This document shows, in pieces, positions 6,593 to 27,061 of a stretch of 64,000 nt of DNA. The notes under the pieces are model-generated. The model searched no databases, had not been told where the DNA came from, and worked only from the letters and a program-made list of their open reading frames with translations. Made by a program: the position numbers and the translations under genes. Position 1 is the stretch's first letter, and each line of letters starts with the position of its first letter. This DNA is from Ostrea edulis. Its lineage: Eukaryota. The stretch is taken from assembly GCF_947568905.1 (NCBI RefSeq), contig NC_079166.1:69626001-69690000 (forward strand), read 5' to 3'.

Positions 6593-6954
6593 AGTAGTAT
6601 AACGCCTCCCGATAGGGGGTTCAACTGAGTGCACTTTTTATGCAAATGAGGTCAAGCAAGGGCGTCTTTTGATTGGTCAAGCGGTGTTGGGGTTAACGGA
6701 GTGGTTCAATATCTAGGACGGGGTTAACCCCAGCAGGGGTTGTAGGCCGGGTGTCGGGTGAATAGGGTGGCCTATGGCCGCTGGTCTAATTTTAGCATGC
6801 GGTACTTTCGCTTTGAGTTCCTGGAATGAGTTCCTGCTATTTTTCTGAAAATCGGTATAAAATCCAGTGAAATCCTGTGAAATCCTGTGTATTAAATCTA
6901 AAACAATAACACAAGGTTTTAAGTTGACATGTTTATTAAAGAACAATGGTACAA
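6593..6954 (+). repeat. Left terminal inverted repeat (362 bp)
   Basis: Reverse complement of 26704-27055 apart from one extra aatcctgtga 10-mer and about two substitutions. Confidence 0.95.
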
Positions 6955-6968
6955 GCATAGAACAATGC

Positions 6969-7040
6969 AAAACAGTTCAATAAGCATGAAAACAGTTCAA
7001 TAAGCATAAAAAACAGTTCAATAAGCATAACAGTTCAAGC
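6969..7040 (+). repeat. Subterminal ~20-bp tandem repeat (about 3.5 copies)
   Basis: aaaacagttcaataagcat repeated directly inside the left TIR. Confidence 0.85.
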
Positions 7041-7048
7041 ACAGTCCA

Positions 7049-7966
7049 TTACTTTCTGCTGAGTTTCTTCTTCTTTTTTGGCCGTTCTTCAGTAGGTGCG
7101 GTTGGATTCCACATCTCTAACGGTGTGTATTCTCTCTTCACAGGGGATTTTGAGCCAGGTACGGACCCAATCATCGCATCTATTTCCAGTTGTTCTTCTG
7201 GACACTCACTAATCCAGTGTCCTATTTTTCCGCATTTGAAGCAAGGATCCTTTTGTTTGGTTTTCTTGCTGGTCTGTTGAGAATCTGCTGACCTCGATTT
7301 CTTACTGGTCTGCGGATAATCTGTTTTCTGTGGGCAATCCGGCGACCAATGTCCTGTTTCTCCACACGTGTAGCACGGGTTAGCAGTGTAATCTGGAGTG
7401 TATTCCTTCCTAGGTTTTTTAGAAGTCAGCTCTTCCAGCTTCTTCAGTAGGATTATGGTATGATTTCCAATCTCATTACTCAGCACATTAATGCGGTTAA
7501 CGATCCCGTCTAGTGTCGTGGTAATGATGGCGAAATCGGTCCTGCTCATGGGGGAATCTTCTCCACCGAAGGGGAGTTTATCGTATAAGCCCATCTCCAG
7601 TCCCGTAGCATCCTGTGAATCGGGAAAATAGAAGCCTAATCCGGGGTCTGTCGGATTCTGGCTAGGGAGGTAATCCGAGGTTTGGGCTATCTTCTCTTGT
7701 CGAGCAACGTGGTCTGAAGGCGTGAGATTGAAGCTCGTGGTCTGGTTCGAGGTCTGGGCCATCTTCTTCTCTTCTCTTCTTCTTTGAGCAACGTAGTCTG
7801 GAGACGTGAGCAAGAAGTTCGAGGTCTTCCCCAGTTCAGTCTTCTGATCGTCACTCTTAGCTTTCTTCAGTTCAATGTAGTCTTTCTGTGGTCCCATCTG
7901 CTTCTGTACCAGCTGATCTATTTTCTTCTGAGCTTTGTCCACAAATTCTAGTTGTTTCTGAGCCAT
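7049..7966 (-). CDS. Double CCHC zinc-knuckle protein, 305 aa
   Basis: CYTCGETGHWSPDC and CFKCGKIGHWISEC fit CX2CX4HX4C; basic C-terminus RPKKKKKLSRK; TATA-like motif at 8019-8025 on the minus strand. Confidence 0.85.
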   Translation of the reverse strand: MAQKQLEFVDKAQKKIDQLVQKQMGPQKDYIELKKAKSDDQKTELGKTSNFLLTSPDYVAQRRREEKKMAQTSNQTTSFNLTPSDHVARQEKIAQTSDYLPSQNPTDPGLGFYFPDSQDATGLEMGLYDKLPFGGEDSPMSRTDFAIITTTLDGIVNRINVLSNEIGNHTIILLKKLEELTSKKPRKEYTPDYTANPCYTCGETGHWSPDCPQKTDYPQTSKKSRSADSQQTSKKTKQKDPCFKCGKIGHWISECPEEQLEIDAMIGSVPGSKSPVKREYTPLEMWNPTAPTEERPKKKKKLSRK

Positions 7967-8126
7967 GTCTTCTGGAAGGTGATTGAAGATCGAATGAGGA
8001 CTGACACTGGGGCTCCGCTTTTATAGCCAGCAAAATGTCTAGACTATTCTGTCTCGTGGGGGGCACGTGGGGAGCACGTGGTTGCATCATCTTTTTCTGG
8101 AAAAACCGGTTTCAGCTAGAACATCG

Positions 8127-8200
8127 CGCGACCAGCGCGTGCTAGTGCACTAATTGAACTTGAAAAGCCGGTTTCTCGCGACCAGCGCGTGCTAGTGCAC
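8127..8200. repeat. Direct repeat, 2 x 24 bp
   Basis: cgcgaccagcgcgtgctagtgcac at 8127-8150 and 8177-8200, each preceded by aaaa(g)ccggtttc. Confidence 0.9.
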
Positions 8201-8286
8201 ATTGGTACACATTGACTTTAGTGGAATGGAACTTATATTGGTGTTTAAAGTAGCCCTAAAAAGGGCTGTGCATGAAGTTTTTATTT

Positions 8287-8793
8287 TTAAAAATGGCCGG
8301 CTTCATACGCAGGTTCTTCTATATACACGTGTAAGTCATGATCTTCGGATATAATGTGTTGTACTAATTGTCGAGCTCTTCTCCCGGGGAAACGTATCTC
8401 TTCGACGGTTTCCCACATCCAGTGTGCATCCCAAAACAATACCCATACACTTCTCCGGTGGCGTGGTTTCTCCAGTCGAATAAATCCCGATACTTTTTGA
8501 GTGCCGTTCAATAACGTGTAAAACTGGTAAATCATGTACTGTATGAGGGGGGAATTTTTCAGGTACATGTCACTTAAACGCAGGTAAATATCCTCCACTG
8601 TTTCATGTGACCGCAATACATAGTCAAAACACCAATTTTTAGATCGGCCCCAGCGTAATGGATGGCGACATCTCTGTACTAAATTGTCCCAGATCTCCAT
8701 CTCGTCTACATAATCTTCCACTATGGTTAAATTCTCCACTGGTTGTATTCCCTGGCGGCGGCGTCTCGCTCTTAAAATTCTCCGTGTATCCAT
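8287..8793 (-). CDS. Protein with a CRESS-virus Rep-like (HUH fold) domain lacking catalytic residues, 168 aa
   Basis: RSKNWCFDY resembles RCR motif I (R..WCFT); YMIYQ...GTQKVSGFIRLEKPR resembles Y...Q.E...GTPHLQGY; FWDAHW resembles the AHWE segment; His of motif II and Tyr of motif III are absent. Confidence 0.6.
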   Translation of the reverse strand: MDTRRILRARRRRQGIQPVENLTIVEDYVDEMEIWDNLVQRCRHPLRWGRSKNWCFDYVLRSHETVEDIYLRLSDMYLKNSPLIQYMIYQFYTLLNGTQKVSGFIRLEKPRHRRSVWVLFWDAHWMWETVEEIRFPGRRARQLVQHIISEDHDLHVYIEEPAYEAGHF

Positions 8794-8828
8794 GACTGAA
8801 GGTCAGACAAGAATGACTGTAGAAAAAC

Positions 8829-8902
8829 CAGCTGACGTACAGGTGTTTGATCACGTGGTGCAGGTGTTTGATCACGTGATGCATAACCTTTACCTATAAA
8901 TA
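8829..8902. promoter_or_regulatory. Divergent promoter with an E-box cluster and TATA box
   Basis: caggtgtttgatcacgtg at 8840-8857 and 8861-8878; CAGCTG and TGACGT upstream; TATAAATA at 8895-8902, 31 nt before the ATG at 8933. Confidence 0.6.
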
Positions 8903-8932
8903 CAGGTGTTTTCTGAACGTTCGTTATTTACT

Positions 8933-9265
8933 ATGGGCGGCAGTGCTACTACGAGAATAAATGGATATAGTTATGTACTACAATGTATGAACGTGGCCTT
9001 ACATAATCCTCACATTCAAAATGCTCGTCAATTTGTACAACAGATGTCACCGGAGGTCAGAAATGTACATAGTTTTCAACGGATTGCTGATTCATTAGCG
9101 GAGAATACCAATACGGGACGTTTACTCATGATTTATTTGTATGCTGAGGAATTGAAACAGAATCTTCCAGACCAGATGAGTGACATTGATCGGATCTCAC
9201 GCGATTGTCTACAAAAAGGATTCGTGGAACTGATTCGTATGAAAGGAATGGCTGCCCTGTTATAA
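8933..9265 (+). CDS. Bcl-2-like alpha-helical protein, paralog A (110 aa)
   Basis: SFQRIADSLAENTNTGRLLMIYLY resembles BH1 (F..V..ELF..G.NWGRIVA.F); N-terminal MGGSAT is compatible with myristoylation. Confidence 0.55.
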   Translation: MGGSATTRINGYSYVLQCMNVALHNPHIQNARQFVQQMSPEVRNVHSFQRIADSLAENTNTGRLLMIYLYAEELKQNLPDQMSDIDRISRDCLQKGFVELIRMKGMAALL

Positions 9266-9304
9266 AACAAGAACGTTTTGGATTTTTTTTTCATTTTGAT
9301 CATC

Positions 9305-9658
9305 ATGGCTGAATTAACCAACAACGTTCTTACCGCTGTATTACAGTATTTCAAGGACTACAAAGAATCGGTGAACAACGCTCGTAGCGCTGCATTACAG
9401 TGTATCAAGGACTGGAAAGAAGAACAGCCGTTGAGATATAAATTCGCCATGAAGTTGGTGATCTTTTGGGAATTTCCTATGACCTTATATGAATATTCCG
9501 GCGTTTGCAAGCATATAGCCGACAACCTGAACAGAGAGTCTGGATTGATCATGATTTATACCATGGAGCAAGAATTTAGACGACGGGAACCTGAGAAGAC
9601 TGGGGCGATTGTAGCGATTACCGATCACTGGTTGGAAAAGGTGTATAAAAAAACCTAA
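9305..9658 (+). CDS. Paralog B of the small helical (Bcl-2-like) family, 117 aa
   Basis: FPMTLYEY...GLIMIYTMEQEFRRREPEKTGAIVAITDHWLEKVY aligns with paralogs C and D. Confidence 0.7.
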   Translation: MAELTNNVLTAVLQYFKDYKESVNNARSAALQCIKDWKEEQPLRYKFAMKLVIFWEFPMTLYEYSGVCKHIADNLNRESGLIMIYTMEQEFRRREPEKTGAIVAITDHWLEKVYKKT

Positions 9659-9686
9659 ACGTTTTCTTTTCCTTTATTCGTGGAGG

Positions 9687-10034
9687 ATGGCCAGCAGTGA
9701 CAACATCGCAGAAAAAGCGCATAACCATGCATTAGAATGGGTCGAGAAAATGCAAGACGATACGGTGTTTCAAGCTGTTAAAAATTATCTGATATCGGGA
9801 GTGTTTCCAATGACTCTGGACGAATATACAGATCTACGGAACCGGATATACATCAATCTCTATAACGATGCGGGATTGATGTTAATTTATGTCCTGGGGG
9901 AGGAATTCAAGAAAAGCATGCCTGAAAAAACCGCCGAGATTGAAAGTATCACCAAGGACTGGCTTCGAGAAGTATACATAAAGTGTGAAGAACTTAATTC
10001 ATTTCATTTATTCCCGGAGGATGGCCAGCAGTGA
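9687..10034 (+). CDS. Paralog C of the small helical (Bcl-2-like) family, 115 aa
   Basis: FPMTLDEY...GLMLIYVLGEEFKKSMPEKTAEIESITKDWLREVY. Confidence 0.7.
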   Translation: MASSDNIAEKAHNHALEWVEKMQDDTVFQAVKNYLISGVFPMTLDEYTDLRNRIYINLYNDAGLMLIYVLGEEFKKSMPEKTAEIESITKDWLREVYIKCEELNSFHLFPEDGQQ

Positions 10035-10326
10035 CCACATCACAGAGAAAGCGATAGTTTATGTATTGGATTATCTCACAGACATTCATTCTTGGCAGAT
10101 TGAATTTGTGTTACACTATATGCGAGAAGAATTATTTCCCATCAGCTTAAAGGACTATCCATGTCTCTGTCAGTATTTGATCGAGAACCGGATCACCCCG
10201 CAAGCCTTAGTACTGATTCATTTAATGGGCCAGGAATTGAAACGAATTCGACCCACAGACAGAGCAGAAATCGAAAAAATCAGACTACGATGTCTTCGAG
10301 AGTTGTACGTCAAGTTAAACGTGTGA
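10021..10326 (+). CDS. Paralog D of the small helical (Bcl-2-like) family, 101 aa
   Basis: Starts ggaggATGGCCAGCAGTGAC like paralog C; FPISLKDY...ALVLIHLMGQELKRIRPTDRAEIEKIRLRCLRELY. Confidence 0.7.
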   Translation: MASSDHITEKAIVYVLDYLTDIHSWQIEFVLHYMREELFPISLKDYPCLCQYLIENRITPQALVLIHLMGQELKRIRPTDRAEIEKIRLRCLRELYVKLNV

Positions 10327-10508
10327 CTTTTAATCTGGACAATAATGAAGTGTATCTGTTACCCGAAGAAGACCGGACAAGTATCTGGATGACTGTAGCC
10401 GCTGATCGATATCGATTTCAACGCAGGATTCGAGAAATGGAAAAAATGTTGGACCCTATTTTAAAAAGACATGTGCATTGGTGTTGTGTGTGGGAGTTAT
10501 GTATTTGA
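10290..10508 (+). CDS. PPP1R15/GADD34/ICP34.5-like PP1 regulatory protein, 72 aa
   Basis: KRVTF (RVxF) followed by W...AADRYRFQRRIREMEKMLDPIL, the conserved C-terminal domain of GADD34/ICP34.5/DP71L; AATAAA at 10522-10527. Confidence 0.88.
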   Translation: MSSRVVRQVKRVTFNLDNNEVYLLPEEDRTSIWMTVAADRYRFQRRIREMEKMLDPILKRHVHWCCVWELCI

Positions 10509-11073
10509 AATATGTGACATGAATAAAATTGTTTACACGAAAGCTGTGTTTGGTTGAGTCTCTCAGAGAAGGGTTTATTTGTTGAGGAATCCAGAAAATC
10601 CTAAAGGTAGAGTGAAAATCGAATCAAATAAGGTGTTTTCTATCGAATAGACCTTATGAGATGTTTTTAGGGATGTACATGGTCGAGAAAATTTTTTTTA
10701 AAGAGGTGGTGAAGAAACATTGAACCTCGACTCGACCTCTTTAACAGCTGTTTCTTTGAAAACTATGCGACGTAGCAAAATAAAAATAAGTTTAACGCAT
10801 TCGCCGTCTCAGAATCTATCAGATTAAATCTACCTTGCACAGATATCGAATGTCTAGAAAAAGACAATGAGAAAAAACTCTCTACTCGAAAGCACAAATC
10901 CGCCATTTTGACGGCCACCATCTTGGCTTCGTCTCCGAAGCGAGGGATGTTTTCGAGGAGGTCCGCGCTTTCCTGATATATACCGGCGCACTCGTCAGTT
11001 CGCTTCACTGGTGATCCAGCACAGTTGTAGAAGATTTTTGAAGATTATTTTACAGAAGAAAGAAGAAAGAAGA

Positions 11074-11859
11074 ATGGCTGCAAGAAGAGACCCGCTCTAC
11101 AATTTCCAGACTTTGCCTGGTTTTCGGTACCGGCTGGTAGTGGTGGCTGAGGAACGGGTAGGGGAGAATTGGGTCGTGCGTTCTGAGAACGACCTGAGCA
11201 CCTTCTCCCCTTTCGACCAGAGTGGGGTCCGTGAGATCATCTGTCGGGTGCGGGCAGAGTATGAAGGGAGGGGACGCCGCCGCACCGCTCGAATCTCCAC
11301 GGCTACGAGACCGCGCCGACGGGCCCCACAGCCACCCTCACCACCACCACCTTACTCCCCGGCGACGCCTACAACACCACCACCAGCGATCCCATCAGCA
11401 CCAGTGGAATACAGCCCGGTGCCGATGAGCGACTCACCAGCGTCACCGGTGGAGTACTCGCCGAGGTCACCGTCCCCCGCACCACCTCCCAGCCCACGTC
11501 AGAGTCCGTCGCTGTTGGTGGCAGGCACGTCATCACCACCGAGACCAGCAGCCCCTGCAAGACCCCCACCACCTACCATCCGGTTTGCAGGGAGGACTCC
11601 ACCACCGAGACCAACCCACGCACCGGTGGCAACTCATCCCCCGAGGAACCACCCTATGACTGTCCCTGGCTGGGCAGATAGGGCGGTTCCTATCTGGTCT
11701 AAGTGCCCTGTCTGCTGGCAAGACAGGGTACACTCCGGTATCACGTGTAGGGGATGTGGGCAGCGCCCAGCTTGCTGCTCGTGCGTGGAAGAGTTACAGG
11801 AGCGGCGACACACCCGGGGACGGTGCCCGTTATGCCGGTTTACCGGAATCAGGGAATGA
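11074..11859 (+). CDS. Proline-rich protein with a PPxY motif and C-terminal RING-like finger (putative E3 ligase)
   Basis: PPPPY motif; C-terminal CPVC-x10-CRGC-x5-CCSC-x13-CPLC with eight potential Zn ligands; start taken at MAARRD. Confidence 0.75.
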   Translation: MAARRDPLYNFQTLPGFRYRLVVVAEERVGENWVVRSENDLSTFSPFDQSGVREIICRVRAEYEGRGRRRTARISTATRPRRRAPQPPSPPPPYSPATPTTPPPAIPSAPVEYSPVPMSDSPASPVEYSPRSPSPAPPPSPRQSPSLLVAGTSSPPRPAAPARPPPPTIRFAGRTPPPRPTHAPVATHPPRNHPMTVPGWADRAVPIWSKCPVCWQDRVHSGITCRGCGQRPACCSCVEELQERRHTRGRCPLCRFTGIRE

Positions 11860-12012
11860 AAGTCGGTCCTTAGGACCAAACGGCCCTTTTCAGGGCCACC
11901 AACTTTTTTGAAAAGACACTTTTTATTGCAAAAATCAAGAAACACACAAGTTTGTTTTAAAAAAAAAAGTTTTATTAACACAAGTAATAGTTAGAATAAA
12001 GCTATAATAAAG

Positions 12013-12510
12013 TTACATTTTCTTGACAATATAAACATGTTTATGATACTGATAAGCAAAGTCACAAATCCATTGTCTATAATGAGTCCAATTGCCTCCG
12101 GCTAATCCACATCCAATACGATAAGGAAACGCTAAAGTCTGGTAAGACAAAGTGCCTAATTCCTGTAAACATTGTTGAAACCAAAGTTCACGTTGTTCGG
12201 GGGTATCGGCATACAAGGGTAAGCGTTGAGTGCCTCTCCCGTAATCCCATTGCGCTAACAAACAGATCACATCAGGATGAGTAGAATGAGGCATAATACA
12301 CACAGTACCCGGTATTCCTCGATCCGCTGCTATAGCTAAATTTCTCCGTCCTAAAGGTTGTCGGGTCGCATACAGATTAGCCCAAGGAAATCGGTCGGCA
12401 ATACGTTGACTTAATCCATGAGGTTTCACCGTTAAACAGTTACATTGTTGTACAATAGCATCCACCCAAGGTAGAGATAATACATCTCCTCGTAGATCCG
12501 TCACCGACAT
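12013..12510 (-). CDS. Macrodomain protein (TARG1/OARD1-like ADP-ribosyl hydrolase), 165 aa
   Basis: GDVL...DAIVQQCNC...GLSQRIADRFP N-terminal signature and LAFPYRIGCGLAGGNW C-terminal signature. Confidence 0.88.
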   Translation of the reverse strand: MSVTDLRGDVLSLPWVDAIVQQCNCLTVKPHGLSQRIADRFPWANLYATRQPLGRRNLAIAADRGIPGTVCIMPHSTHPDVICLLAQWDYGRGTQRLPLYADTPEQRELWFQQCLQELGTLSYQTLAFPYRIGCGLAGGNWTHYRQWICDFAYQYHKHVYIVKKM

Positions 12511-12902
12511 GCTGGTTGACAGGTCTCACAGGTACACGTTGACCGGGGTTCTTGACTGTAAGGACAATGTTGAAACAGGTGGGGTTTAAACTTTCTCTGA
12601 GTCCAGCGCTCTCTAAACTCCTGACAGATCTCACAGGTACAGTCCTTATGCGCTATTTCTTCTTCAGGGGTGATGGTACAATGCTGCGGACACTTACACG
12701 GTAGCCAGGGTTCTCTAGTGTGACCACAACATTTATAGACAAAGGGACAATAATTCAGCTCTGCCATATACTCTATCCACTTATGTTTGGCCAGGATGTT
12801 TTCTTTTTTATAATGAAAACAGCCACAAGTTCTCCAAGGTCCTCGGCAATACCCACACACTAGTACATCTTTCTCATCTTGCACGTACCGTTCAAACGAC
12901 AT
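12501..12902 (-). CDS. Cys/His-rich protein of unknown function
   Basis: Many CxxC/CxC clusters (CGYC, CGC, CKCPQHC, CTCEIC, CTCETC); start taken at MSFERY; overlaps the macrodomain start. Confidence 0.7.
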   Translation of the reverse strand: MSFERYVQDEKDVLVCGYCRGPWRTCGCFHYKKENILAKHKWIEYMAELNYCPFVYKCCGHTREPWLPCKCPQHCTITPEEEIAHKDCTCEICQEFRERWTQRKFKPHLFQHCPYSQEPRSTCTCETCQPACR

Positions 12903-13077
12903 GATTGAGAAAAATGGTAACAAGTGACCTATGTATATAGTGTTTTTTGATGAGTCATCAACATGACGTCAGCCATCTGAGGTAGGGGATGTTTTCGAGG
13001 ACGTCCGCGCTCTCGCCTTTTTAAAACGAGCGCAACGTCAAAATCGGGCATTCCGATTTTTTAAAGGAACCAGAACC

Positions 13078-13377
13078 ATGAGCCGTAGAGTAGGACCAGA
13101 CCCTACAGTGAATGATTATTGTATCAAATGGGAGGAGGATTGGGAGCAAGAGATTGCCCCGCCGGCCTCACGGGAGGCTCTTCCCCCACCGCCCATGAGC
13201 CAGGATCTGCCCCCGCCAGAGGAAAACTGGGACGCAGAGTTAGAAGTGGTGCAACGGCCTCCGGGGAGATTGTTTTTTAAACACGGGTGGTTGCCCGTTT
13301 TTGTGTTTGACCACGAGCAACCCCCGGAGGAGCAGAAAAAGAAGAGAAGAAAGAAGAAGAAGAAGAACAGACAGTGA
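13078..13377 (+). CDS. Small acidic/proline-rich protein with a basic tail, 99 aa
   Basis: Repeated EEDWEQE and EENWDAE motifs; C-terminal KKKRRKKKKK; upstream element shared with the RING gene. Confidence 0.65.
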   Translation: MSRRVGPDPTVNDYCIKWEEDWEQEIAPPASREALPPPPMSQDLPPPEENWDAELEVVQRPPGRLFFKHGWLPVFVFDHEQPPEEQKKKRRKKKKKNRQ

Positions 13378-13626
13378 GGGGGACCGAGAAGAAAAGAAGA
13401 GAAGGAGAAGAGAAGAAGAGAAGGAGAAGAAGGAGAAGAGAGAAGAAGAAGAGAAAAGACCAAGAACAGAGAGAAAGAAAACAGCCCTTTTCAGGGCTAC
13501 CCATTCTTTTTGAAAAGACATGGTTGATTACAATGACAAGAAATTTTTTTTTTTTCCAACGTTTTATTAAACTCCAACTATGAACAATAACAATAACATA
13601 GTTTACAATACATTCAGTCTTTGACA

Positions 13627-14100
13627 TTAACAAGTTTGTCCTTGATGGGTTCTCGGTTTTCGGAAGGTCTCTTTAAACCAATCCGACACAAAACGATCGC
13701 GTTGTAAGGCCGTGCCTTTCCAGGGAAGTAACCATTCTCGTACGGTGCTTCTATGTCGATGGCGTTGATGTAAAAAATACACACAGTATTGTCCACAGAC
13801 ATCCGTATTCAAATCTTGATAACAATGGGTGTTATGAATCCAAGTCTCTCCGTGGCGTTGAATAAAGTCTTGGATGTCTTTATGGCTGGGAGGTAATCCG
13901 TAAGAATCAAAATATTCGACGGTAGGGCTACTCAAATACAAACAGACCCAATGCGCTCCAGGGCGATCGTGAGGGTCTGTATTCACCACGATGGCTTTGT
14001 GATGAGGTAACAACTCAGGTATGACATCTCGAGGATACACACCTGCAAACGCCGGTCCTAAATCTCGTTGTAAAACATCTCTCAATTGCTGAGTATCCAT
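13627..14100 (-). CDS. pro: Adenain-like cysteine protease (Polinton PRO), 157 aa
   Basis: NTDPHDRPGAHW (catalytic His), YFDSYG (Asp), QDLNTDVCGQYC (Gln and catalytic Cys). Confidence 0.95.
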   Translation of the reverse strand: MDTQQLRDVLQRDLGPAFAGVYPRDVIPELLPHHKAIVVNTDPHDRPGAHWVCLYLSSPTVEYFDSYGLPPSHKDIQDFIQRHGETWIHNTHCYQDLNTDVCGQYCVYFLHQRHRHRSTVREWLLPWKGTALQRDRFVSDWFKETFRKPRTHQGQTC

Positions 14101-14107
14101 CTCTCTC

Positions 14108-15511
14108 TTAGTAATCGATGCTGACTTCTCGTTGTTTGTTGATTTCTAGCAGATTGTCGAACACGGCATACACCACACAGTTTAAGGTCCTGGCCACGTT
14201 GGCGGCAAATTGCACTTCCACTCTCAAGTTCCCCGTCTGTATGAGATGAAATTTATCCGTCTGGGCTTCTTGATCTTTCGTGAAATCCACACACCAGAGG
14301 GTGTAACCGTTTTTATACTCTTCCAGGGTAATGTCCGGAGCCCAGTCCTGGCCTAATTTTCCCAAGCCTTTGTACAGACTCAAATACGATCTCAGGTACT
14401 GATCGTCGGTGAAATTAGGTTCCAAAGGTCGGGTTTCCATCATTTCTCCATTGATACTGATTTCTAATTTCTTGACTCTCTCATTTTGGAAATGAAAGGG
14501 GTTTCTGGTATTATCCCCATTAAAAGCCGCATTGTCCACAAAACCCAACACGATCAGTTTAGGCATCTGTCCTTGAAACAGATGATCGGTGATTTTAGAT
14601 TGGGTGCCACTAGGAATGGTGAAGGTTTTCACTTCCACTCGTCTCAATGGATATTTCGCCGTTTGAGTACTCAGTTGCTGATTGATGAGATTAATGATAC
14701 TCGGCACAGGTTTGACTTTCCTCACCCACAAGATCATACTTTGAATGACCACTTTCCCACTACTCCCGGCATCGGTCATCATGTAGAACTGGGGTCGAGC
14801 GCGATTGAATCTGAGACGGACATCCAAACCATTAGGGAGACATTTCTCTTGCTCAAACAAATCCAGATGTAATCGATCCATCAACACGATCTCCTTACTG
14901 TCTGTAATCTTCTCGTGACGTTTTCTCAACCCTACATTCTTGGAATCATCCGGATACTCGGGAGTCGGGATGACGGCCGCGATGTTGACTTTGTTAGACA
15001 CTACTGCAAATTCCACAGGAGTTTGAGCCAGAGCTTCTAATTTGACCTCATCCATATGTCCTGCCGTATCTTTTTCCCACAAGCTACAGGCTCTCATCTG
15101 GGTTTCCAGAGTCTTGGGTGCATAAGACAGCAATTTCTCCAGATACGCTTTGTAGGGATAAGTATCCGTCCCCGGGGTAATGACTTTTCCATTGAGACTG
15201 ACATCGATTTCACTGAACAAGGAATGGAGAATGTTATTCACGGGGGTGGAGGTCGAATGGCCTCCTGCGAGATTCGTTCCATTGGCTTTCGTGAATTTAC
15301 AGACCATCTGGAGATAAGTTTGGGATAAATCCAGATATTCATCTCCTTGTCCTTTGATTTCAAATTCAATCGGAGCCGTATCCGAGTTGAGGGTACTGGA
15401 AATGGGATAATATTCCATCCATTTCGAATCTTCTAAAGTGACGTTGGTCGGGGGCACTTTAAACAGTTCTAAACTGCTGGTGCCACAAGCGCAAGATTCT
15501 CGGTGCATCAT
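14108..15511 (-). CDS. Double jelly-roll major capsid protein (PY/hexon-like), 467 aa
   Basis: LELF.VPPT, PIEFEI...[43 protein letters not shown] and G.LRVEVQF motifs typical of Maverick MCP. Confidence 0.93.
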
Positions 15512-15590
15512 ATTGGAACGATGTGTTACTCAGCGTGAACTGGGATCAAATGTGTTCTGGCCTCCTTCTCACCCCCTTTTTATAGGGTTC

Positions 15591-16283
15591 TCAGTCGAAA
15601 ATATCCAGAGAGCGTTTTGGCTTACCCCTTTTCACTAGCTTCCTACCTCCCTTCCTAGATCGCTCCCTAGGTTGCTTCCTAGGTCTCTTATGAGGCCCTC
15701 CCCGAGCTAAGATACGTTGTTTTCTTTTAACAAATCCTTTTCCTTCCTGTATTCCCACCTGTTTTCCCAACTGTTTTCTTTTGAGGGTCGTGGTTCCAGG
15801 CTTCCTGAGTATTCCTGTGCGTGCTTTTCTTCCTCGTTTGGATGGGGCTTTTCGAGACCTTCGCCTACGGGCATACCCTGCTGTCTCTTTCAGGGCTTGG
15901 GTACCGTGTGTCTTGAGAGCGTCTTTGAGTGATCGTTTATTATCTAACACATCCATCCCTGTTTTAGCAGCAGCCTTTAAGGCACTTTTAGCCCCCGATT
16001 TGAGTAAATCGGTGAAAAATCCTTTTCCCTTCTGCTTTTCAGATTCTGGATCATATTCTTCTGTTGGATGGCTTCTACGTCGTCTCCTCTGATAAGAACG
16101 ATAAGGGCGGTCGTAATCATAATATCTCTCTTGATAGACAGGACGCTGTTGTTGTTGTTGCTGTTGTGTGGGGGCTCCACCTAATAATCCGCTGATCAGG
16201 GGACCCGCCACTTTGCTAGCTATTCCCAACAGGGCTCCAAGCCCGTGACCCTGCTGCCGTATTAAACCTTTATGGTAGTGCAT
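15591..16283 (-). CDS. Basic virion core-like protein with QxGxG motifs, 230 aa
   Basis: QQGHGLG, QKGKGFF and QEGKGFV motifs; amphipathic helix; Arg/Lys-rich C-terminus; adjacent to MCP. Confidence 0.75.
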   Translation of the reverse strand: MHYHKGLIRQQGHGLGALLGIASKVAGPLISGLLGGAPTQQQQQQQRPVYQERYYDYDRPYRSYQRRRRRSHPTEEYDPESEKQKGKGFFTDLLKSGAKSALKAAAKTGMDVLDNKRSLKDALKTHGTQALKETAGYARRRRSRKAPSKRGRKARTGILRKPGTTTLKRKQLGKQVGIQEGKGFVKRKQRILARGGPHKRPRKQPRERSRKGGRKLVKRGKPKRSLDIFD

Positions 16284-16456
16284 CTTGATGTAAATGAACT
16301 TCGTTAGGGGTTACACCCGCTTTTTATACTTTTTACGCCGTCTTTTCTCTTCTTTCCTTGGCCCGCTTGACCCACAATGGCATTGGCAATCCACGGAATG
16401 AGAAACCAGATTCCGTGTCCTTTCTGGCGTCTGACACCTCGATGGTACTTCATCTT

Positions 16457-17455
16457 TCAATACACTTTGCGGAAATGAAGTTTGACTAAGGAGCGCCCAT
16501 TTAAAAACCCCATAGGACGCCCTAAAGAATTCATGATGTGTACCTCAATGGTATCGAAATATTTCTTACTCAGTTTCAAATATTCGGCTCGAATCGGTTC
16601 CCAACGGGCTTGTTGTCGATCGTCGTATTGACCCGTACAGGGGACGACTCTCAATAATTTCAATTTGTTGGTGCCCACCACTTGAGGATCCACAATGTCA
16701 CAATACACATACATGGCTTTCAGATTGTCGTAGACATCCATGGTCGTGTTCCCCAAGTAATTCACGTTGATCCATTTCGTCATGGTTTCATCGCCCAGGA
16801 TCATTTTGTCACTATCCAGACCTAGCTTGTACGCTAAGGGCGTAGGGAAACGAATGCACATGGGGGTGGTTCTCAGTGCTTTCCCATTAAACTGATACTC
16901 GACACGATCGTACTCGGGGTGATACACTAAGATCTGGTTGTTCCCCTCGTCGTTAGGATTCCCTAACTCGCTCCATACTTTCCACAGGGTTCTCCTTAAG
17001 GCTGCGTTGATTTCATTGATTAACGCCAAAGGTTGTGTATAAGCTCCGGGTCGGAAGTGAATGCGAATGATATCGAAGGGAAATAAACTATCCCCTCCCG
17101 CAAAGAGATGGGACCATGGCGTCAGATCCCAGGGGACCACCACCTCACACCTGGCCATCGTGACTTTACCCATATTCTCTGTCTTAAATCTTTCCCATTT
17201 ATAAGTGTTGGGATCTTGGACATGTTTCGTATACGGATCTGGAATGAGAACGTCCACATAAGCCTCGCTATCCGATACGTTTTGTAAGTTGACCGAGTAC
17301 ATCATTTCGGTCAATCCGACTTCCCATGCTCCACCCGTTAAGTCCATGGTGTGTGGCAATAACGTTTTAAATTGAGCAGTCGTATTCGTCGGAAACGATT
17401 CCATCGACCCATCACTCAACAGAGTCATGTAAAACCCTTCTCCTCCTCCAGCCAT
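16457..17455 (-). CDS. Minor capsid protein (penton, PX), 332 aa
   Basis: FYMTLLSD.S...FP.NT...F...L....L.G.WEVGL N-terminus and YVYCDIVDPQVVG....LLRVVP C-terminus. Confidence 0.93.
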   Translation of the reverse strand: MAGGGEGFYMTLLSDGSMESFPTNTTAQFKTLLPHTMDLTGGAWEVGLTEMMYSVNLQNVSDSEAYVDVLIPDPYTKHVQDPNTYKWERFKTENMGKVTMARCEVVVPWDLTPWSHLFAGGDSLFPFDIIRIHFRPGAYTQPLALINEINAALRRTLWKVWSELGNPNDEGNNQILVYHPEYDRVEYQFNGKALRTTPMCIRFPTPLAYKLGLDSDKMILGDETMTKWINVNYLGNTTMDVYDNLKAMYVYCDIVDPQVVGTNKLKLLRVVPCTGQYDDRQQARWEPIRAEYLKLSKKYFDTIEVHIMNSLGRPMGFLNGRSLVKLHFRKVY

Positions 17456-17672
17456 GATGTCTTAAATGAGCCCCTGTCTCTGTTTCCTTCTCTATTTATA
17501 CTCATAACACAATGAACATTTTCATATTTTATTGAACATACAACATAATGTTAATACACAATTTTACATGTCATTCTTCTTGATCGCGACCACCACCCCA
17601 CATCAACGCATCCGAGTCTTCCAACTCTAGTGTTCGTCTCGGGACTAAGCGTCGTCGCATCACCAGATAGTG

Positions 17673-18020
17673 TCAGGTTCCCCAGCAATCGGCTACATCA
17701 TAACCTTCATTGATCATGTCTTTAAAATGTCGGAGACAGTCCTCGGAATGGTCAAACCAAGGACTCTCATTTAAGGTCCAATCGGATTCGTCTTGTCGTC
17801 CCATCAATCCCCAGAAGGCTTTGACTTTCCAACGAAACTCTTGATACTTGGTCTTCATGATAAAGGCTGACCATCCGTGAGGTATCACGATCCGTTTGTA
17901 CAAGTACACCGGTTGATCTAACACTTTGTGTTGTTTACAATGCATCAAACACATCTGCTTATCCCAGAACCAGGTACTTTTCTTCCCCTCTTGTTTCCAG
18001 GCGTACTGTGGCTTAACCAT
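17673..18020 (-). CDS. Trp-rich hypothetical protein, 115 aa
   Basis: Open ORF in the compact gene array; internal repeat STWFWDKQMCLMHCK / SPWFDHSEDCLRHFK. Confidence 0.6.
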   Translation of the reverse strand: MVKPQYAWKQEGKKSTWFWDKQMCLMHCKQHKVLDQPVYLYKRIVIPHGWSAFIMKTKYQEFRWKVKAFWGLMGRQDESDWTLNESPWFDHSEDCLRHFKDMINEGYDVADCWGT

Positions 18021-18270
18021 GGTGAACTGATGAATCTGAAGAAGATCGTTCCTGTTTTATACTCGGGCTCGCTAACGTCATTTGTGGACTAGGCATGACG
18101 TAACCCACGAGAGAACTTAAGGTCACCATCCAAAAATCGCGATTGGGATCGCCTAAGGCTAACATCACGACCGACGTAATAATGATGGTTAAACACAGGA
18201 ATAATTGTGCAAAATACACAATTTCTGCTCGGGGGACTTTTTCACCCAAGAAAGTCCACTGGTTGGTCAT
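18013..18270 (-). CDS. Small two-TM membrane protein, 85 aa
   Basis: Two hydrophobic helices ending in W...LSSLVGYVMPSP; TATA-like motif at 18372-18379 on the minus strand. Confidence 0.7.
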   Translation of the reverse strand: MTNQWTFLGEKVPRAEIVYFAQLFLCLTIIITSVVMLALGDPNRDFWMVTLSSLVGYVMPSPQMTLASPSIKQERSSSDSSVHHG

Positions 18271-19351
18271 GGCCGAATGAGATCCGTTGCGGAATCCATG
18301 AATCAAAACTGGGAGGATATCCTTTCCAACGCACTTTGACTTCTGAAATGACTTTTTTTCCCACACGCCGCTTTTTATACCCTAAAATTTCTTCCACTTC
18401 ATAGACATCATCGTCTTTAATCACTTGTTGTAATTCCTTCTCGTAAAACGTTCCTTCTAATTCTTCCCCGTGATCATCTTGAATGCGATAGACGTTTCGT
18501 CCTGGCACTTTTCTAGAGATGGTAAACAGTTCTTTGGTCCAATTCGGTAAATATCCTTTTTCAAACGTACGTTTAGCTTTACTAATGCGTACACGATCCC
18601 CCACTTGCAAGCGACTCGTGGTATCGGCACTCTGTTTTCCATACAAGGTTTTCCATACGGTCAAGACATTCTTGGCATTGACTTGAGCAGGAGCTCGCCG
18701 GATACTGCGATGATAGGTATGATTGTAACCATACACCAGATCGGCCAAGACATCGACATACCGTCGTGTTTTATGACGTGTAAAATACCGCCACATACGT
18801 GCTTTCAGCGTGCGTTGAAAACGTTCCACAATACTGGCTTTGGTTTCGGCATTACGGGTCGTAAAGAAATGAATGGATTTGAAGGCTTGACGAAATTCTT
18901 TATTGGTAAATTCTTTTCCTTGATCGGACTGAATGCGCACGGGGCGACGTCCCTCTCGAAAAATCCGTCGTAAGCCTCGTATCATTTCTTTCCCCGTTTT
19001 CTGTTTTAAAGGCACGACCCAGGCATATTTAGACAGCACGTCAATGGCACATAATAAAAACGTATACCCATTATTGTCTTGTTTCAAGCTGGAGACATCG
19101 GCTAAATCTAATTGCCATTGTTCATCCATATCCGTCACTCGTGTTTGTCGTCGCTTGAATTTCCTCCGTATCGGTTTATGCAAGGTATAGGTATCTTGAG
19201 CTTTCACCCATTCTCGAATTTGAGACAGGGTAATCTTGTGTCCTAATTGACGCACTTGACGATACAACGCCTGGACTCCCCCATACCCTGTCTTGGGATC
19301 GTAATACAGTCGCTGTAAGATCTGTTCTGCTTTCATGGTAGATTTAACCAT
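18242..19351 (-). CDS. int: Retroviral-type (rve) integrase with C-terminal chromodomain
   Basis: QLDLAD, QSDQGKEF and IVERFQRTLK give D-D-E; YEVEEIL...VKVRWKGYPPSFDSWIP is a chromodomain. Confidence 0.96.
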   Translation of the reverse strand: MVKSTMKAEQILQRLYYDPKTGYGGVQALYRQVRQLGHKITLSQIREWVKAQDTYTLHKPIRRKFKRRQTRVTDMDEQWQLDLADVSSLKQDNNGYTFLLCAIDVLSKYAWVVPLKQKTGKEMIRGLRRIFREGRRPVRIQSDQGKEFTNKEFRQAFKSIHFFTTRNAETKASIVERFQRTLKARMWRYFTRHKTRRYVDVLADLVYGYNHTYHRSIRRAPAQVNAKNVLTVWKTLYGKQSADTTSRLQVGDRVRISKAKRTFEKGYLPNWTKELFTISRKVPGRNVYRIQDDHGEELEGTFYEKELQQVIKDDDVYEVEEILGYKKRRVGKKVISEVKVRWKGYPPSFDSWIPQRISFGHDQPVDFLG

Positions 19352-20100
19352 TTTCCAATTTCACGTGATGTCTTTTTACTGGCCTCCCAGATATTTTTAG
19401 GGGTCATCATTCGTCTGGGAGTTTCATAGAACGATTGGTCAAAACCAGAGATTTCTTGAAATCCGCTCTCCTCTTCCTCTAGAGGTCTAGGCGTACTGAT
19501 TTTCCCTGGTTTGTCCATGGCTTTTATAACATCCCGATTGTTCACATATCCTTTGGGAGCATGAGTCTCTTTTAACGCTTGAGCAAATTCCTCTAATCCC
19601 GTGGGGGGATCACGATGTCTTAAGGGTCTTTGTCGTTGGGCTTCGGTCATTAAATCCACAATATTGGAATCGGGAACCCTGCGTCCTCTATAACTGATTT
19701 CTCCTTCTTTATTCCAAGTCACCACTTTGGATTTCTTGAGATGATCGAGTAATAAACCTGCTTTCTTTCGACCCGGTTTATTGACGCTTTTGATAATCTG
19801 TTCCTCCAAGTCATCGGATGCTGAGGCGGCTGAGGGTGGTGAGGCAGCACTGGCTGCACTGGTTGGGGAGGGCAGAGTCGCTGTGGTGGGATGTCGAGCT
19901 TGTTGTAAATATTGACGATAGCGATGAAGTTGATGCCCGTACAACCCCACTTTTTCTTTCTCGGTTAAATCATCTCGATGTTCAATCTCGTCCAAATCAG
20001 TGCGTAAACCAATAGTCGAGGTAAATTCGGGAGGTTTAGGTAATTTGCCTTTTAATTCGTTGAGCATCGCTTCCGGTACCAACACCATTTTTCGACTCAT
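19333..20100 (-). CDS. Conserved Maverick protein of unknown function (PW/PZ class), 255 aa
   Basis: RKMVLVP, DL.EKEKV.LY...L.RY and WN..GEI...G..VP.SNIVDL motifs recurring in Mavericks. Confidence 0.75.
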   Translation of the reverse strand: MSRKMVLVPEAMLNELKGKLPKPPEFTSTIGLRTDLDEIEHRDDLTEKEKVGLYGHQLHRYRQYLQQARHPTTATLPSPTSAASAASPPSAASASDDLEEQIIKSVNKPGRKKAGLLLDHLKKSKVVTWNKEGEISYRGRRVPDSNIVDLMTEAQRQRPLRHRDPPTGLEEFAQALKETHAPKGYVNNRDVIKAMDKPGKISTPRPLEEEESGFQEISGFDQSFYETPRRMMTPKNIWEASKKTSREIGKWLNLP

Positions 20101-20426
20101 GATTTCTTACAAATCTTGCCACACACAAACGAACCCAATCCTTTTTGGTGGATGAGTATACCTCGTCGTTTTTTCACGGGTTGAGGGTGGACTAAGCGTC
20201 TTAAGATGTGTTTCTTTCGACCCAGTTGTCGCTTCTGAGTAGGATTGAGAGGAATCACCCCTTTTAATAGATTGTACACAATCTCACAAATCTTTAAAAT
20301 GCAGTCATTGGAACAATGTTTCAACACCTCTGTCTTTAATTTGCTGGAATAGTGAGGAGCCGCTAACGTCTGCAAGAGCGGTAAATGAGGTCGTAATCGA
20401 CATTCACACTTCTTCGTATGAGCCAT
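20097..20426 (-). CDS. Basic core-like protein, 109 aa
   Basis: ICEIVYNLLKGVIPL...KRQL...K..LRRL...QKGLG; ATGA stop/start overlap with the next ORF; TATA-like motif at 20458-20465. Confidence 0.7.
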   Translation of the reverse strand: MAHTKKCECRLRPHLPLLQTLAAPHYSSKLKTEVLKHCSNDCILKICEIVYNLLKGVIPLNPTQKRQLGRKKHILRRLVHPQPVKKRRGILIHQKGLGSFVCGKICKKS

Positions 20427-20466
20427 GGTAATGAAGGGTGGGGCACCTTCCCCCTCCTTTTTATAC

Positions 20467-21351
20467 CTAGTCCAGGACAATGGCACTCGGATGTTTAGGA
20501 TCAAAACGCTTGTGATGGACGGTCTCTTCGTGACGATTGCGGTTCTCTCTCGCATTGAAGACCAGAGGGCAAAATTTACATTTATATTTCTTTTGCACCT
20601 GAACCGGTGTTGAGGTGGTTAAGGGTTGAAATTTCATGCTTCCAAAGGTATGAGCAAAACTCGGTAGAGCCGTATCACTGGTTCTGGAACTTCCTATAGG
20701 CCCATGCATGGGTCGTTCCATTTTCTTTTGAGCTAATCCGGCTTTCAGATTGGCTAACGTTTTAGTGACCTTGGGGGGAGTGGCCTTGGGAAACGGCATC
20801 TTCACAATGAGAGGGGTTTTCTTTGGAGCCCAATTGGGAAACGGATTCTTCATCCTGAGAGGTGTCTTCTTAGGGGATTTCTTAGGGGACTTCTTAGGGG
20901 ACTTCTTAGGTGTCTTCTTAGGTAAGCGAATAATGAGTTTAGGAATTCTCTGAGGTGATTTTTTAGCTTTCTTAGCCCGTGGCTTCTTGGTTTTCTTGGG
21001 TTGTCCCCCACGGGGCTTACGGCCTGTTTCCCATTTGAATAAATGACGAATAATGGTCCCTCCTAAGAATCCGGCGCCTCCTCGTTTCAAAATGGCTTTT
21101 TTACGCTCTTCTTCATTGGACTTCTTATCGGCAATGACACTCAAGTCTTGGCGATGGGATTGAATGAACCGCTGAGTGATTTTATTGCCTGGTAAGACGC
21201 CTCGCAATAAATTTCGATCGCCCATCGCAAACCAGTTGAGTAAGGCTCTACGTCCTAATTCAATGAGATGGCTCCGTTGAACGGGATCCCGTTCCCGTTG
21301 TAAACGGCGTAACGTTTTGACTAATTTACTCTTCGCGGAAGGTCTACCCAT
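20467..21351 (-). CDS. Core-protein paralog fused to histone H1-like SPKK repeats and a C2H2 zinc finger
   Basis: NLLRGVLPG...KKAILKRGGAGFLGG resembles the 20097-20426 protein; PKKTPKKSPKKSPKKSPKKTP; YKCKFCPLVFNARENRNRHEETVH; start at MGRPSAK preferred because of the TATA-like motif at 21398-21405. Confidence 0.75.
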   Translation of the reverse strand: MGRPSAKSKLVKTLRRLQRERDPVQRSHLIELGRRALLNWFAMGDRNLLRGVLPGNKITQRFIQSHRQDLSVIADKKSNEEERKKAILKRGGAGFLGGTIIRHLFKWETGRKPRGGQPKKTKKPRAKKAKKSPQRIPKLIIRLPKKTPKKSPKKSPKKSPKKTPLRMKNPFPNWAPKKTPLIVKMPFPKATPPKVTKTLANLKAGLAQKKMERPMHGPIGSSRTSDTALPSFAHTFGSMKFQPLTTSTPVQVQKKYKCKFCPLVFNARENRNRHEETVHHKRFDPKHPSAIVLD

Positions 21352-21400
21352 GATGAAGACTGTCTTTCGAATGATACACCTGCCCATGATGTGACATTAT

Positions 21401-22054
21401 TTATACTCTCGGGGGCATGTGCACAGCCAAGTTGGTAAAGAGTTGACTTCTTAATCTTAAATCGTCCGACGTCTGAGGACTCAAGTCCACTAGTAAATAC
21501 CCGTGAGGTACACGGGTGGCGTCCTCATAGGCTGGAAGTAAATGCGGCATTTGTAATTGCCGACTTAACACCCCAATCTGAGATTTATCTCGAGGATTTT
21601 TAAACAGCACAAGATAGTGAGCATTCAGACTGATGGTACGATGTTGTACTGCTCGATCAAACAGATTTTGTGTGATATAAATGACACTGGTATTTCGATG
21701 ATGCGCTTTGCGCGTAAACCAGTCGACAATCGATTCGATGGCTTTACCTCCCATCATATCATCAAAAATGAGTAGATGACGCGTACTGAGATCCGCCACT
21801 ATCTGCTCATCGTCTTGAGGTATATTGCGGATAAAAGTGACCTTGTCCTGTAAGGATTCGTACGCGGACTGCCATTCTCGATAACACCATACTATCTTTT
21901 CGGGAGGCGGTGCAATCCACTGCGTATTTTGTACCAGTTGCTTGACAAATTCCGTTTTACCCGATTTAGAGGGTCCAGCCACCACCATGGTAAATTCATG
22001 TTTCAACTGAAAAGGCTCAAGTGTCTCGTAGGTATACATCTTGATAAATGACAC
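21401..22054 (-). CDS. FtsK/A32-like DNA packaging ATPase, 217 aa
   Basis: Walker A GPSKSGKT, Walker B LLIFDD, and RKAHHRNTSVIYITQNLF. Confidence 0.95.
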   Translation of the reverse strand: MSFIKMYTYETLEPFQLKHEFTMVVAGPSKSGKTEFVKQLVQNTQWIAPPPEKIVWCYREWQSAYESLQDKVTFIRNIPQDDEQIVADLSTRHLLIFDDMMGGKAIESIVDWFTRKAHHRNTSVIYITQNLFDRAVQHRTISLNAHYLVLFKNPRDKSQIGVLSRQLQMPHLLPAYEDATRVPHGYLLVDLSPQTSDDLRLRSQLFTNLAVHMPPRV

Positions 22055-22079
22055 AAGTTCATGGGATCATACATATTTA

Positions 22080-22610
22080 TTAACAAATAAAAATACGTAC
22101 AGCTTGCTCAACACTATGTCTACAAATAGGACATTGTTTCAGTCCCGTAGCACATATAGCACAAGTACATAAATGACCACAAGGTAAAAAAGCTATTCTC
22201 AAGTCTCTTTCTAAACACAGATGACATTTCTCCGTCGTCGTAGCCGGATTCTCCACACTGTCTACAGACAAGTCTCCCCAATCCTTCCCTGTGTCTCGCA
22301 TTCGGCTAACGGCGTCGAACATTTGGCGTACCCATTGTTTGCCCTTATTACACTTCAGGTAAGGACAGTGAGGATACCAATAAGCATGTTGTATCCAAGG
22401 ATTGTCGACAGCTCCCCAATGGTGAAGTCCAAAGTTGCAATAAAAACAGCACGTGCTATCCCCGTACCCTTTGTAAAAGTATCCCGCTTCTGCAATGGTA
22501 GGTAATAGCTTCTGCAAGTGTTCGGAAGCATTTTCAAACGACGCTACTCGATCTGACAGTAGAGCATAACGTGGTGTACCCGGGTTATGTAGTGATTCGT
22601 AGTCCGTCAT
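22080..22610 (-). CDS. iap: Inhibitor of apoptosis protein (single BIR + RING), 176 aa
   Basis: BIR: R..SF...AEAGYFY.G..D...CFYC...L..W...DNPW.QHA.W.P.C; RING: C..C...R...FLPCGH...C..CA..L..CPICR. Confidence 0.95.
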   Translation of the reverse strand: MTDYESLHNPGTPRYALLSDRVASFENASEHLQKLLPTIAEAGYFYKGYGDSTCCFYCNFGLHHWGAVDNPWIQHAYWYPHCPYLKCNKGKQWVRQMFDAVSRMRDTGKDWGDLSVDSVENPATTTEKCHLCLERDLRIAFLPCGHLCTCAICATGLKQCPICRHSVEQAVRIFIC

Positions 22611-22646
22611 TTTTGCCGACTGATGGTTTTCTCTAGCATGTCCTTT

Positions 22647-26627: not shown

Positions 26628-26703
26628 TGCACCGCGCGCCGCTTTATATATATTACCTGTAGACAGCGCTGGGTAAAACTAGGGATCGTGCCAGCTCTGG
26701 GGA

Positions 26704-27055
26704 TTGTACTATTGTTCTTTAATAAACATGTCAACTTAAAACCTTGTGTTATTCTTTTAGATTTAATACACAGGATTTCACTGGATTTTATACCGATTTT
26801 CAGAAAAATAGCAGGAACTCATTCCAGGAACTCAAAGCGAAAGTACCGCATGCTAAAATTAGACCAGCGGCCATAGGCCACCCTATTCACCCGACACCCG
26901 GCCTACAACCCCTGCTGGGGTTAACCCCGTCCTAGATATTGAACCACTCCGTTAACCCCAACACCGCTTGACCAATCAAAAGACGCCCTTGCTTGACCTC
27001 ATTTGCATAAAAAGTGCACTCAGTTGAACCCCCTATCGGGAGGCGTTATACTACT
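26704..27055 (-). repeat. Right terminal inverted repeat (352 bp)
   Basis: Reverse complement of 6593-6954. Confidence 0.95.
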
Positions 27056-27061
27056 ATGGCT

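What the first reader, a model, noticed from the sequence alone, without database searches (positions are those of the whole stretch)
10290..10508. Minimal ICP34.5/GADD34 mimic
Seen: a 72-aa protein consisting almost only of RVxF plus the DR.RF.RRI eIF2-alpha-binding segment; the ORF track start (10161) hides it. Established: HSV ICP34.5 and ASFV DP71L recruit PP1 to dephosphorylate eIF2-alpha and reverse translational shut-off. Inference: this element expects to face the integrated stress response, which fits a true viral phase rather than pure transposition.
Basis: partly seen in the sequence, partly recalled or inferred. Interest (0 to 1): 0.75.

Follow-up and report, generated by a model that had tools for sequence, protein, structure and literature searches.

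The report
Polinton-borne GADD34 mimic overlapping Bcl-2-like gene
An intact virus-like mobile element (Polinton) in a mollusc-like genome carries a small conserved gene matching the stress-reversing core of animal GADD34 and swine fever virus DP71L, which likely lets it switch host protein synthesis back on; we found no report of this in Polintons.

Summary
The ORF is real. It passes the Pfam PP1c_bdg cut-off (28.7 vs 26.1 bits), and its best solved relatives are ASFV DP71L and PPP1R15B. It keeps RVxF, phi-phi and the PP1-, eIF2-alpha- and G-actin-facing residues, with one Gly-to-Ser departure from the published consensus. It lies in an intact 20.5-kb Polinton (6593-27055). The genome gave 150 scored matches, dN/dS is about 0.13-0.41 between subfamilies, and 82 of 82 near-identical capsid genes have it nearby. 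Other Polinton clades and metagenome contigs carry relatives. The extra 43 residues overlap an upstream gene with a predicted Bcl-2-like fold; they are kept open but not conserved. The product likely recruits PP1 and G-actin to dephosphorylate eIF2-alpha and may be made by leaky scanning; nothing was assayed. The gene alone does not prove a virion phase; capsid selection (dN/dS 0.11-0.12) is better evidence. Diverged copies sit in endogenous herpesvirus-like elements. Verdict: a new variant of a known viral strategy in an unreported carrier.

The parts
10290..10508 (+). PPP1R15/GADD34-type core, short form (72 aa)
   Evidence: PF10488 28.7 bits; DP71L and PPP1R15B matches; this ATG in 40 of 78 copies
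10161..10508 (+). Long form (115 aa): same core plus a 43-aa spacer read in the -1 frame of the upstream gene; likely the more general start
   Evidence: ATG at this offset in 73 of 78 copies; frame open more often than synonymous recoding gives, P 0.004-0.065; spacer residues not conserved
10317..10331 (+). RVxF motif KRVTF; the upstream gene's stop codon lies inside it
   Evidence: sequence; aligns with DP71L V16/F18
10350..10355 (+). phi-phi motif V21-Y22
   Evidence: alignment to DP71L and PPP1R15B; GADD34 V564-H565 described in PMC10743859
10374..10430 (+). R29-x3-W33...D39-R40-x-R42-F43-x-R45-R46-I47, equivalent by spacing to PPP1R15A R578, W582, R591, F592, R594, R595, I596
   Evidence: the tested motif set kept in 71 of 78 in-register copies
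10449..10463 (+). LDPIL, aligned to DP71L LSAVL; both needed leucines kept
10522..10527 (+). AATAAA, the only such site between 8957 and the ORF end; likely shared by the upstream paralogs
   Evidence: present within 200 nt of the core in 77 of 78 copies
10021..10326 (+). Overlapping upstream gene (paralog 4), five-helix model with Bcl-2-like fold (middling match)
   Evidence: pLDDT 90; ASFV A179L Z 7.6, rmsd 3.3, 100 aligned; Mcl-1 TM 0.56, E 1.5
8933..10034 (+). Three further tandem paralogs (8933-9265, 9305-9658, 9687-10034), each with a TATA box 38-44 nt before its ATG
   Evidence: alignment
9977..9982 (+). TATA-like CATAAA 44 nt before the paralog-4 ATG, implying a very short leader (inferred)
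6593..27055 (.). Complete Polinton/Maverick: identical terminal inverted repeats of about 287 nt, AGTAGT...ACTACT ends, 6-bp target duplication ATGGCT (6587-6592, 27056-27061)
   Evidence: end motifs as in PMC8097293
22647..26606 (-). Protein-primed DNA polymerase B
   Evidence: PF03175 E 3e-57
22080..22610 (-). IAP (BIR + RING)
   Evidence: PF00653, PF13920
21401..22039 (-). Packaging ATPase
   Evidence: PF04665
18242..19351 (-). Integrase with chromodomain
   Evidence: PF00665, PF00385
14108..15511 (-). Major capsid protein; label from position and recalled resemblance, no family or PDB hit
   Evidence: dN/dS 0.11-0.12
13627..14100 (-). Adenain-type protease
   Evidence: PF00770 at the cut-off

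Best explanation
This is a Polinton accessory gene encoding the isolated PPP1R15/GADD34 core, which likely binds host PP1 and G-actin and is predicted to direct them to dephosphorylate eIF2-alpha, reversing stress-induced translational shut-off while the element is expressed. Shown: family membership, motif retention, purifying selection, constant linkage to the capsid gene, overlap with the upstream gene. Inferred from PPP1R15A and DP71L work: RVxF, phi-phi and R29 dock on PP1; W33, R42 and R45 position the substrate; F43, R46 and I47 bind actin. More weakly inferred: it has no promoter of its own and is read by leaky scanning from the short-leader mRNA of the overlapping Bcl-2-like gene, mostly from 10161 and, in this subfamily, also from 10290. 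It belongs to a defence-antagonist set with four Bcl-2-like paralogs and an IAP.
For: Pfam over cut-off. PDB relatives are all PPP1R15 family, DP71L first. dN/dS 0.13-0.41 in 14 of 15 pairs among six representative copies, P<0.05 in 13 of 15 (pairs not independent). 71 of 78 in-register copies keep the tested motif set without a stop. 82 of 82 near-identical and 41 of 47 more distant capsid genes have the gene within 11 kb. Other Polinton clades in this genome carry their own free-standing 74- and 85-aa versions. 4 of 11 metagenome loci lie beside a Polinton protease or capsid gene and 4 more beside other genes shared with this element. The host has PP1 and an intron-bearing PPP1R15 gene. DP71L, made only of these motifs, suppresses the ISR in cells (10.1101/2025.02.28.640897). 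Leaky scanning: TATA boxes before each paralog, one shared AATAAA, and in 22 of the 62 copies whose patterns were printed the first ATG after the paralog-4 start is in this frame.
Against: No binding or activity data. The strict published eIF2-alpha consensus is missed at one place, Ser for Gly/Asn/Leu; Ser is common in relatives (52 of 119) but no tested Ser variant is known to me. One pair of close copies gave dN/dS 0.56, not significant. Expression is not shown. The paralog-4 ATG is in strong context, and in the window's subfamily one or two other ATGs precede 10161, which counts against simple leaky scanning. For the window's subfamily the open spacer is not significant (P 0.065). The count of 78 is conditional on a motif-anchored pattern; 14 of 92 loci fell out, three of them (L067, L080, L083) damaged copies.
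Confidence: 0.8

Rival explanations
1. It binds PP1 but is not an eIF2-alpha phosphatase subunit: it redirects PP1 to another substrate, or sequesters PP1 from host GADD34 and so keeps eIF2-alpha phosphorylated.
For: Gly-to-Ser departure from the consensus. A DP71L C-terminal deletion that still binds PP1 raised eIF2-alpha-P (PMC5346070). PP1 has other innate-immune substrates (PMC10807198).
Against: The substrate-facing and actin-facing residues and both LSAVL-type leucines are kept across subfamilies; a plain PP1 sponge would need only RVxF.
Confidence: 0.1
2. It works as proposed but serves intracellular copying or survival of the carrying cell under stress (for example in the germ line), with no extracellular virus phase.
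For: All copies seen are integrated; no free genome or particle was detected; IMG/VR gave no relative in three scans.
Against: Capsid and protease genes are under purifying selection, the same capsid carries three different alleles of this gene (61, 15 and 6 copies), and similar selection is read as reinfection in PMC8097293. This rival concerns the life cycle and is compatible with the best explanation's biochemistry.
Confidence: 0.3
3. A captured host fragment that is no longer translated and is carried passively.
For: No promoter of its own, weak context at 10161, no real RNA support.
Against: Purifying selection downstream of the overlap, a spacer frame kept open at P 0.004-0.008 in five KC-type copies where no other start exists, 2-5 stops in the same frame of the other paralogs against none in paralog 4.
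Confidence: 0.05

Closest known systems
ASFV DP71L (short form; PDB 9nb9)
   Same: About 70-aa PP1- and eIF2-binding core only; RVxF, R-x3-W, DRxRFxRRI and the two LSAVL leucines align.
   Different: Carried by an integrated Polinton; Ser at the consensus Gly; overlaps an upstream gene and may have a 43-aa spacer; untested.
HSV-1 ICP34.5
   Same: Viral PPP1R15 core with RVxF (PMC10807198).
   Different: No RARA motif here; ICP34.5's long N-terminal part (recalled) is absent.
Cellular PPP1R15A/GADD34 and PPP1R15B/CReP; host gene at G000:C6:28294153
   Same: Conserved core residues; host GADD34 is controlled by upstream ORFs (PMC10743859).
   Different: No PEST or membrane regions, no intron (the host gene has one inside KK|VHF); about 30% identical to the host exon and not its sister in an unresolved tree.
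Polintons/Mavericks (adintoviruses)
   Same: Inverted repeats, end motifs, 6-bp duplication, core genes, accessory region.
   Different: No GADD34-type accessory gene found in print in my searches.

Membership tests
PPP1R15/GADD34 core (PF10488) | Score over the Pfam gathering cut-off | tested here: met
   28.7 vs 26.1 bits
PPP1R15/GADD34 core (PF10488) | RVxF PP1-docking motif | tested here: met
   KRVTF; KCVTF-type in 36 of 78 copies
PPP1R15/GADD34 core (PF10488) | phi-phi and Arg (R578) PP1 contacts | tested here: met
   V21-Y22, R29 by alignment
PPP1R15/GADD34 core (PF10488) | Strict eIF2-alpha-binding consensus Rx[Gnl]x1-2Wxxx[Arlv]x[Dn][Rg]xRFxx[Rlvk][Ivc] (quoted in PMC5346070) | tested here: not met
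   Ser at the [Gnl] place, all other places match; Ser in 52 and Gly in 57 of 119 relatives scored
PPP1R15/GADD34 core (PF10488) | Substrate- and actin-facing residues (W582, R591, F592, R594, R595, I596 equivalents) | tested here: met
   W33, R42, F43, R45, R46, I47
PPP1R15/GADD34 core (PF10488) | Binds PP1 and G-actin and dephosphorylates eIF2-alpha | not testable with these tools
   needs bench assay
Polinton/Maverick | Terminal inverted repeats, (AGT)2/(ACT)2 ends, 6-bp target duplication | tested here: met
Polinton/Maverick | pPolB, integrase, ATPase, protease | tested here: met
Polinton/Maverick | Double jelly-roll major capsid protein | tested here: inconclusive
   467-aa ORF in the expected place, no Pfam, NCBIfam or PDB sequence hit; not folded
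Polinton with an extracellular virus phase | Virions or free genomes | not testable with these tools
   indirect only:
Viral Bcl-2-like proteins (upstream paralog 4) | Bcl-2 helical fold | tested here: inconclusive
   Bcl-2 family dominates full-length matches, best Z 7.6, under the level the tool calls safe for helical proteins; no sequence match

The most novel reading that the evidence does not exclude
The overlap is a regulatory device: the Bcl-2-like gene acts as an inhibitory upstream ORF, so the GADD34 mimic is made mainly when eIF2-alpha is phosphorylated, rebuilding the host's GADD34 feedback loop from two viral genes. The arrangement recurs with a different upstream partner (a PC4-like gene in L118-L120), and animal Polintons are a large reservoir of ISR antagonists that passed this one to a herpesvirus.
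Probability: 0.2. Interest if true: 0.82.

Novelty: new variant of a known kind. Interest (0 to 1): 0.6.

Why it matters
Whether animal Polintons live as real viruses is still open. A selected antagonist of translational shut-off, beside an IAP and predicted Bcl-2-like genes, is the kit of viruses that meet host cell defences, and this gene can be assayed alone in cells. It extends a strategy known from herpesviruses and ASFV to another class of element in several clades. Many short natural variants exist (1,556 clusters at E<=1e-3; 111 of 151 listed are 130 aa or less; their genomic context is mostly unknown), relevant to work on DP71L as an ISR inhibitor. The herpesvirus-like copies point to gene flow between endogenous viruses in one genome.

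Tried and rejected
RNA evidence: of 4 runs laid, the only recorded RNA run gave one 153-nt contig (10386-10538); contigs cannot show start, strand or level, and no splice joint was seen. Not used as support. IMG/VR: no relative in 3 scans; phages: none. The 54-sequence alignment was too diverse for a locus scan. Tree of 153 cores on 62 columns is largely unresolved and dates no capture. A -1 frameshift from paralog 4 was considered; by eye I saw no canonical slippery heptamer near 10270-10290. A splice acceptor before 10161 is possible from the sequence but has no read support. Paralog family: no Pfam, PDB or named homolog. Earlier findings: none. Literature: polinton+GADD34 0 papers; polinton+eIF2 3 papers, unrelated by title; no polinton paper in the listed results; adintovirus paper and supplement without GADD34/PP1 terms. 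Rojas 2015 was not held. The 391-protein Table II of the DP71L preprint was not visible and could hold such proteins.

Full report
Observation. The ORF 10290-10508 exists and is the 3' part of a 115-aa ORF from 10161. It scores 28.7 bits on Pfam PP1c_bdg, cut-off 26.1. Its significant PDB sequence matches are ASFV DP71L and PPP1R15B, and a profile of 54 relatives finds 8 chains, all PPP1R15 family. By spacing and alignment it has RVxF (KRVTF), phi-phi (V21-Y22), R29 and W33 (PPP1R15A R578, W582), R42, F43, R45, R46, I47 (R591, F592, R594, R595, I596) and the two leucines of DP71L LSAVL. The roles of those residues come from passages of PMC8500838, PMC10743859 and PMC5346070: R591 and R594 face eIF2-alpha, F592 and R595 face G-actin. 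The strict consensus quoted in PMC5346070 fails at one place (Ser); among 119 relatives that could be scored, Gly and Ser are about equally common (57 and 52).

Setting. The gene lies in a complete Polinton, 6593-27055, with identical inverted repeats, AGTAGT/ACTACT ends and a 6-bp duplication, and with polymerase, integrase, ATPase, protease and IAP genes. The capsid label rests on position and recalled resemblance. The genome is 895 Mb; its own PPP1R15 gene has an intron inside the RVxF motif and groups with a Saccostrea protein, so a bivalve host is inferred. The search returned 150 scored matches of 198 candidates. 82 of 82 capsid genes at 98-100% and 41 of 47 at 78-91% have the gene within 11 kb, and one capsid backbone carries three alleles.

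Selection. Over 42 codons downstream of the overlap, six representative copies give dN/dS 0.13-0.41 in 14 of 15 pairs and 0.56 in one close pair; 13 of 15 have P<0.05, and pairs are not independent. 71 of 78 in-register copies keep the tested motif set; 14 of 92 loci were outside the pattern (7 second-clade copies, 2 herpesvirus-like, 1 host, 1 other clade, 3 damaged).

Start codon and overlap. ATG 10290 is in 40 of 78 copies; an ATG 51-54 codons before the RVxF lysine is in 73 of 78. The KC-type subfamilies have only the upstream one. The spacer lies in the -1 frame of paralog 4, whose stop falls inside the RVxF codons. That frame has no stop over the last 55 codons of paralog 4, against 2-5 in the other paralogs; synonymous recoding leaves it open with P 0.004-0.008 in five KC-type copies and 0.065 in two of the window's type. 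Its residues are not conserved, so it is a passive spacer. Each paralog has a TATA or TATA-like box 38-44 nt before its ATG, neither mimic start has a canonical one, and one AATAAA at 10522 follows. I infer nested 3'-co-terminal mRNAs and leaky scanning past a cap-proximal ATG. Against this, the paralog-4 ATG is in strong context and one or two ATGs intervene in the window's subfamily. RNA data did not decide it.

The neighbour. Paralog 4 folds confidently (pLDDT 90) and matches Bcl-2 proteins over its whole length, best ASFV A179L at Z 7.6 and Mcl-1 at TM 0.56, E 1.5. These scores are middling for a helical protein, so Bcl-2-like is a lead. With the IAP it would form an anti-death, anti-shut-off set.

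Spread. Other Polinton clades in the genome carry free-standing 74- and 85-aa versions. Of 11 metagenome loci, 4 lie beside a Polinton protease or capsid gene, 4 beside other genes shared with this element and 3 have no such match. In several the mimic overlaps a PC4-like gene instead. The profile finds 1,556 clusters at E<=1e-3; 111 of 151 listed proteins are 130 aa or shorter, mostly unnamed and without context. Four diverged copies lie in endogenous herpesvirus-like elements. They keep the Polinton-type spacer and a trace of the paralog-4 frame, which suggests the Polinton as donor, but show no purifying selection. The tree cannot date or order the captures.

Mechanism. Most likely (0.8) the product is a PPP1R15-type subunit that assembles PP1 and G-actin on phosphorylated eIF2-alpha, as DP71L does (section 8 of 10.1101/2025.02.28.640897). 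Oyster PERK is induced by poly(I:C) (abstract start and passages of PMC9680061), so the pathway is plausibly engaged in bivalves. All binding and activity steps are inferred. Host GADD34 is translated through upstream ORFs under stress (PMC10743859), which prompts the untested idea that the overlap makes the mimic stress-gated (0.2).

Novelty. The strategy is known from HSV-1, ASFV and TGEV (passages of PMC10807198). I found no report in Polintons: 0 papers for polinton+GADD34, 3 unrelated by title for polinton+eIF2, none in the listings, and no matching terms in the adintovirus paper's text or supplement or in the Maverick paper's text. Not seen: Rojas 2015, the preprint's 391-protein table, and most subscription journals. 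Verdict: new variant of a known kind; interest 0.6.

Noticed in passing
G000:C8 near 52.26-52.37 Mb and 25.25-25.62 Mb (L044, L045, L108-L111, L129-L137): Gene-dense endogenous herpesvirus-like elements: four terminase genes over the PF02499 cut-off; the one tested also has PF02500 and matches HSV terminase subunit 3 at E 6e-30; BIR genes; a scaffold-like ORF as a lead only. Four copies of this gene lie there; two are 73-75% identical in DNA to window 10200-10556 and keep a trace of the paralog-4 frame, which suggests Polinton-to-herpesvirus transfer. The mimic frame is open in 4 of 4, but the motif is altered and dN/dS is 0.9-1.9, so function is doubtful.
   Followed up: partly
window 8933-10326: Four tandem 101-117-aa paralogs; paralog 4 model resembles Bcl-2 proteins; paralog 1 has a stretch recalling BH1 (recalled motif).
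   Followed up: partly
L046-L050, L084, L085, L034, L106: Other Polinton clades with a free-standing mimic; CARD-PC4 fusion genes lie beside it in L046 and L106.
   Followed up: partly
L118-L120, L123, L124: In metagenome contigs the mimic overlaps the end of a long upstream ORF, PC4-like in the three scanned, whose stop falls 19 nt after the RVxF valine.
   Followed up: partly
genome-wide: One near-identical capsid backbone carries three alleles of the mimic (61, 15, 6 copies): accessory-module recombination.
   Followed up: partly
window 12013-12510 (-): 165-aa ORF with weak matches to two hypothetical-protein structures; macrodomain-like by recalled resemblance only.
   Followed up: partly
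window 4370-5467 and 29872-31071 (-): The Polinton sits between two single-ORF rhodopsin-type GPCR genes.
   Followed up: no
window 42584-46126 (-): Long open RT-RNase H-integrase ORF of an LTR retroelement.
   Followed up: no
window 4040-4431: 49-nt tandem repeat running into the end of the first GPCR gene.
   Followed up: no
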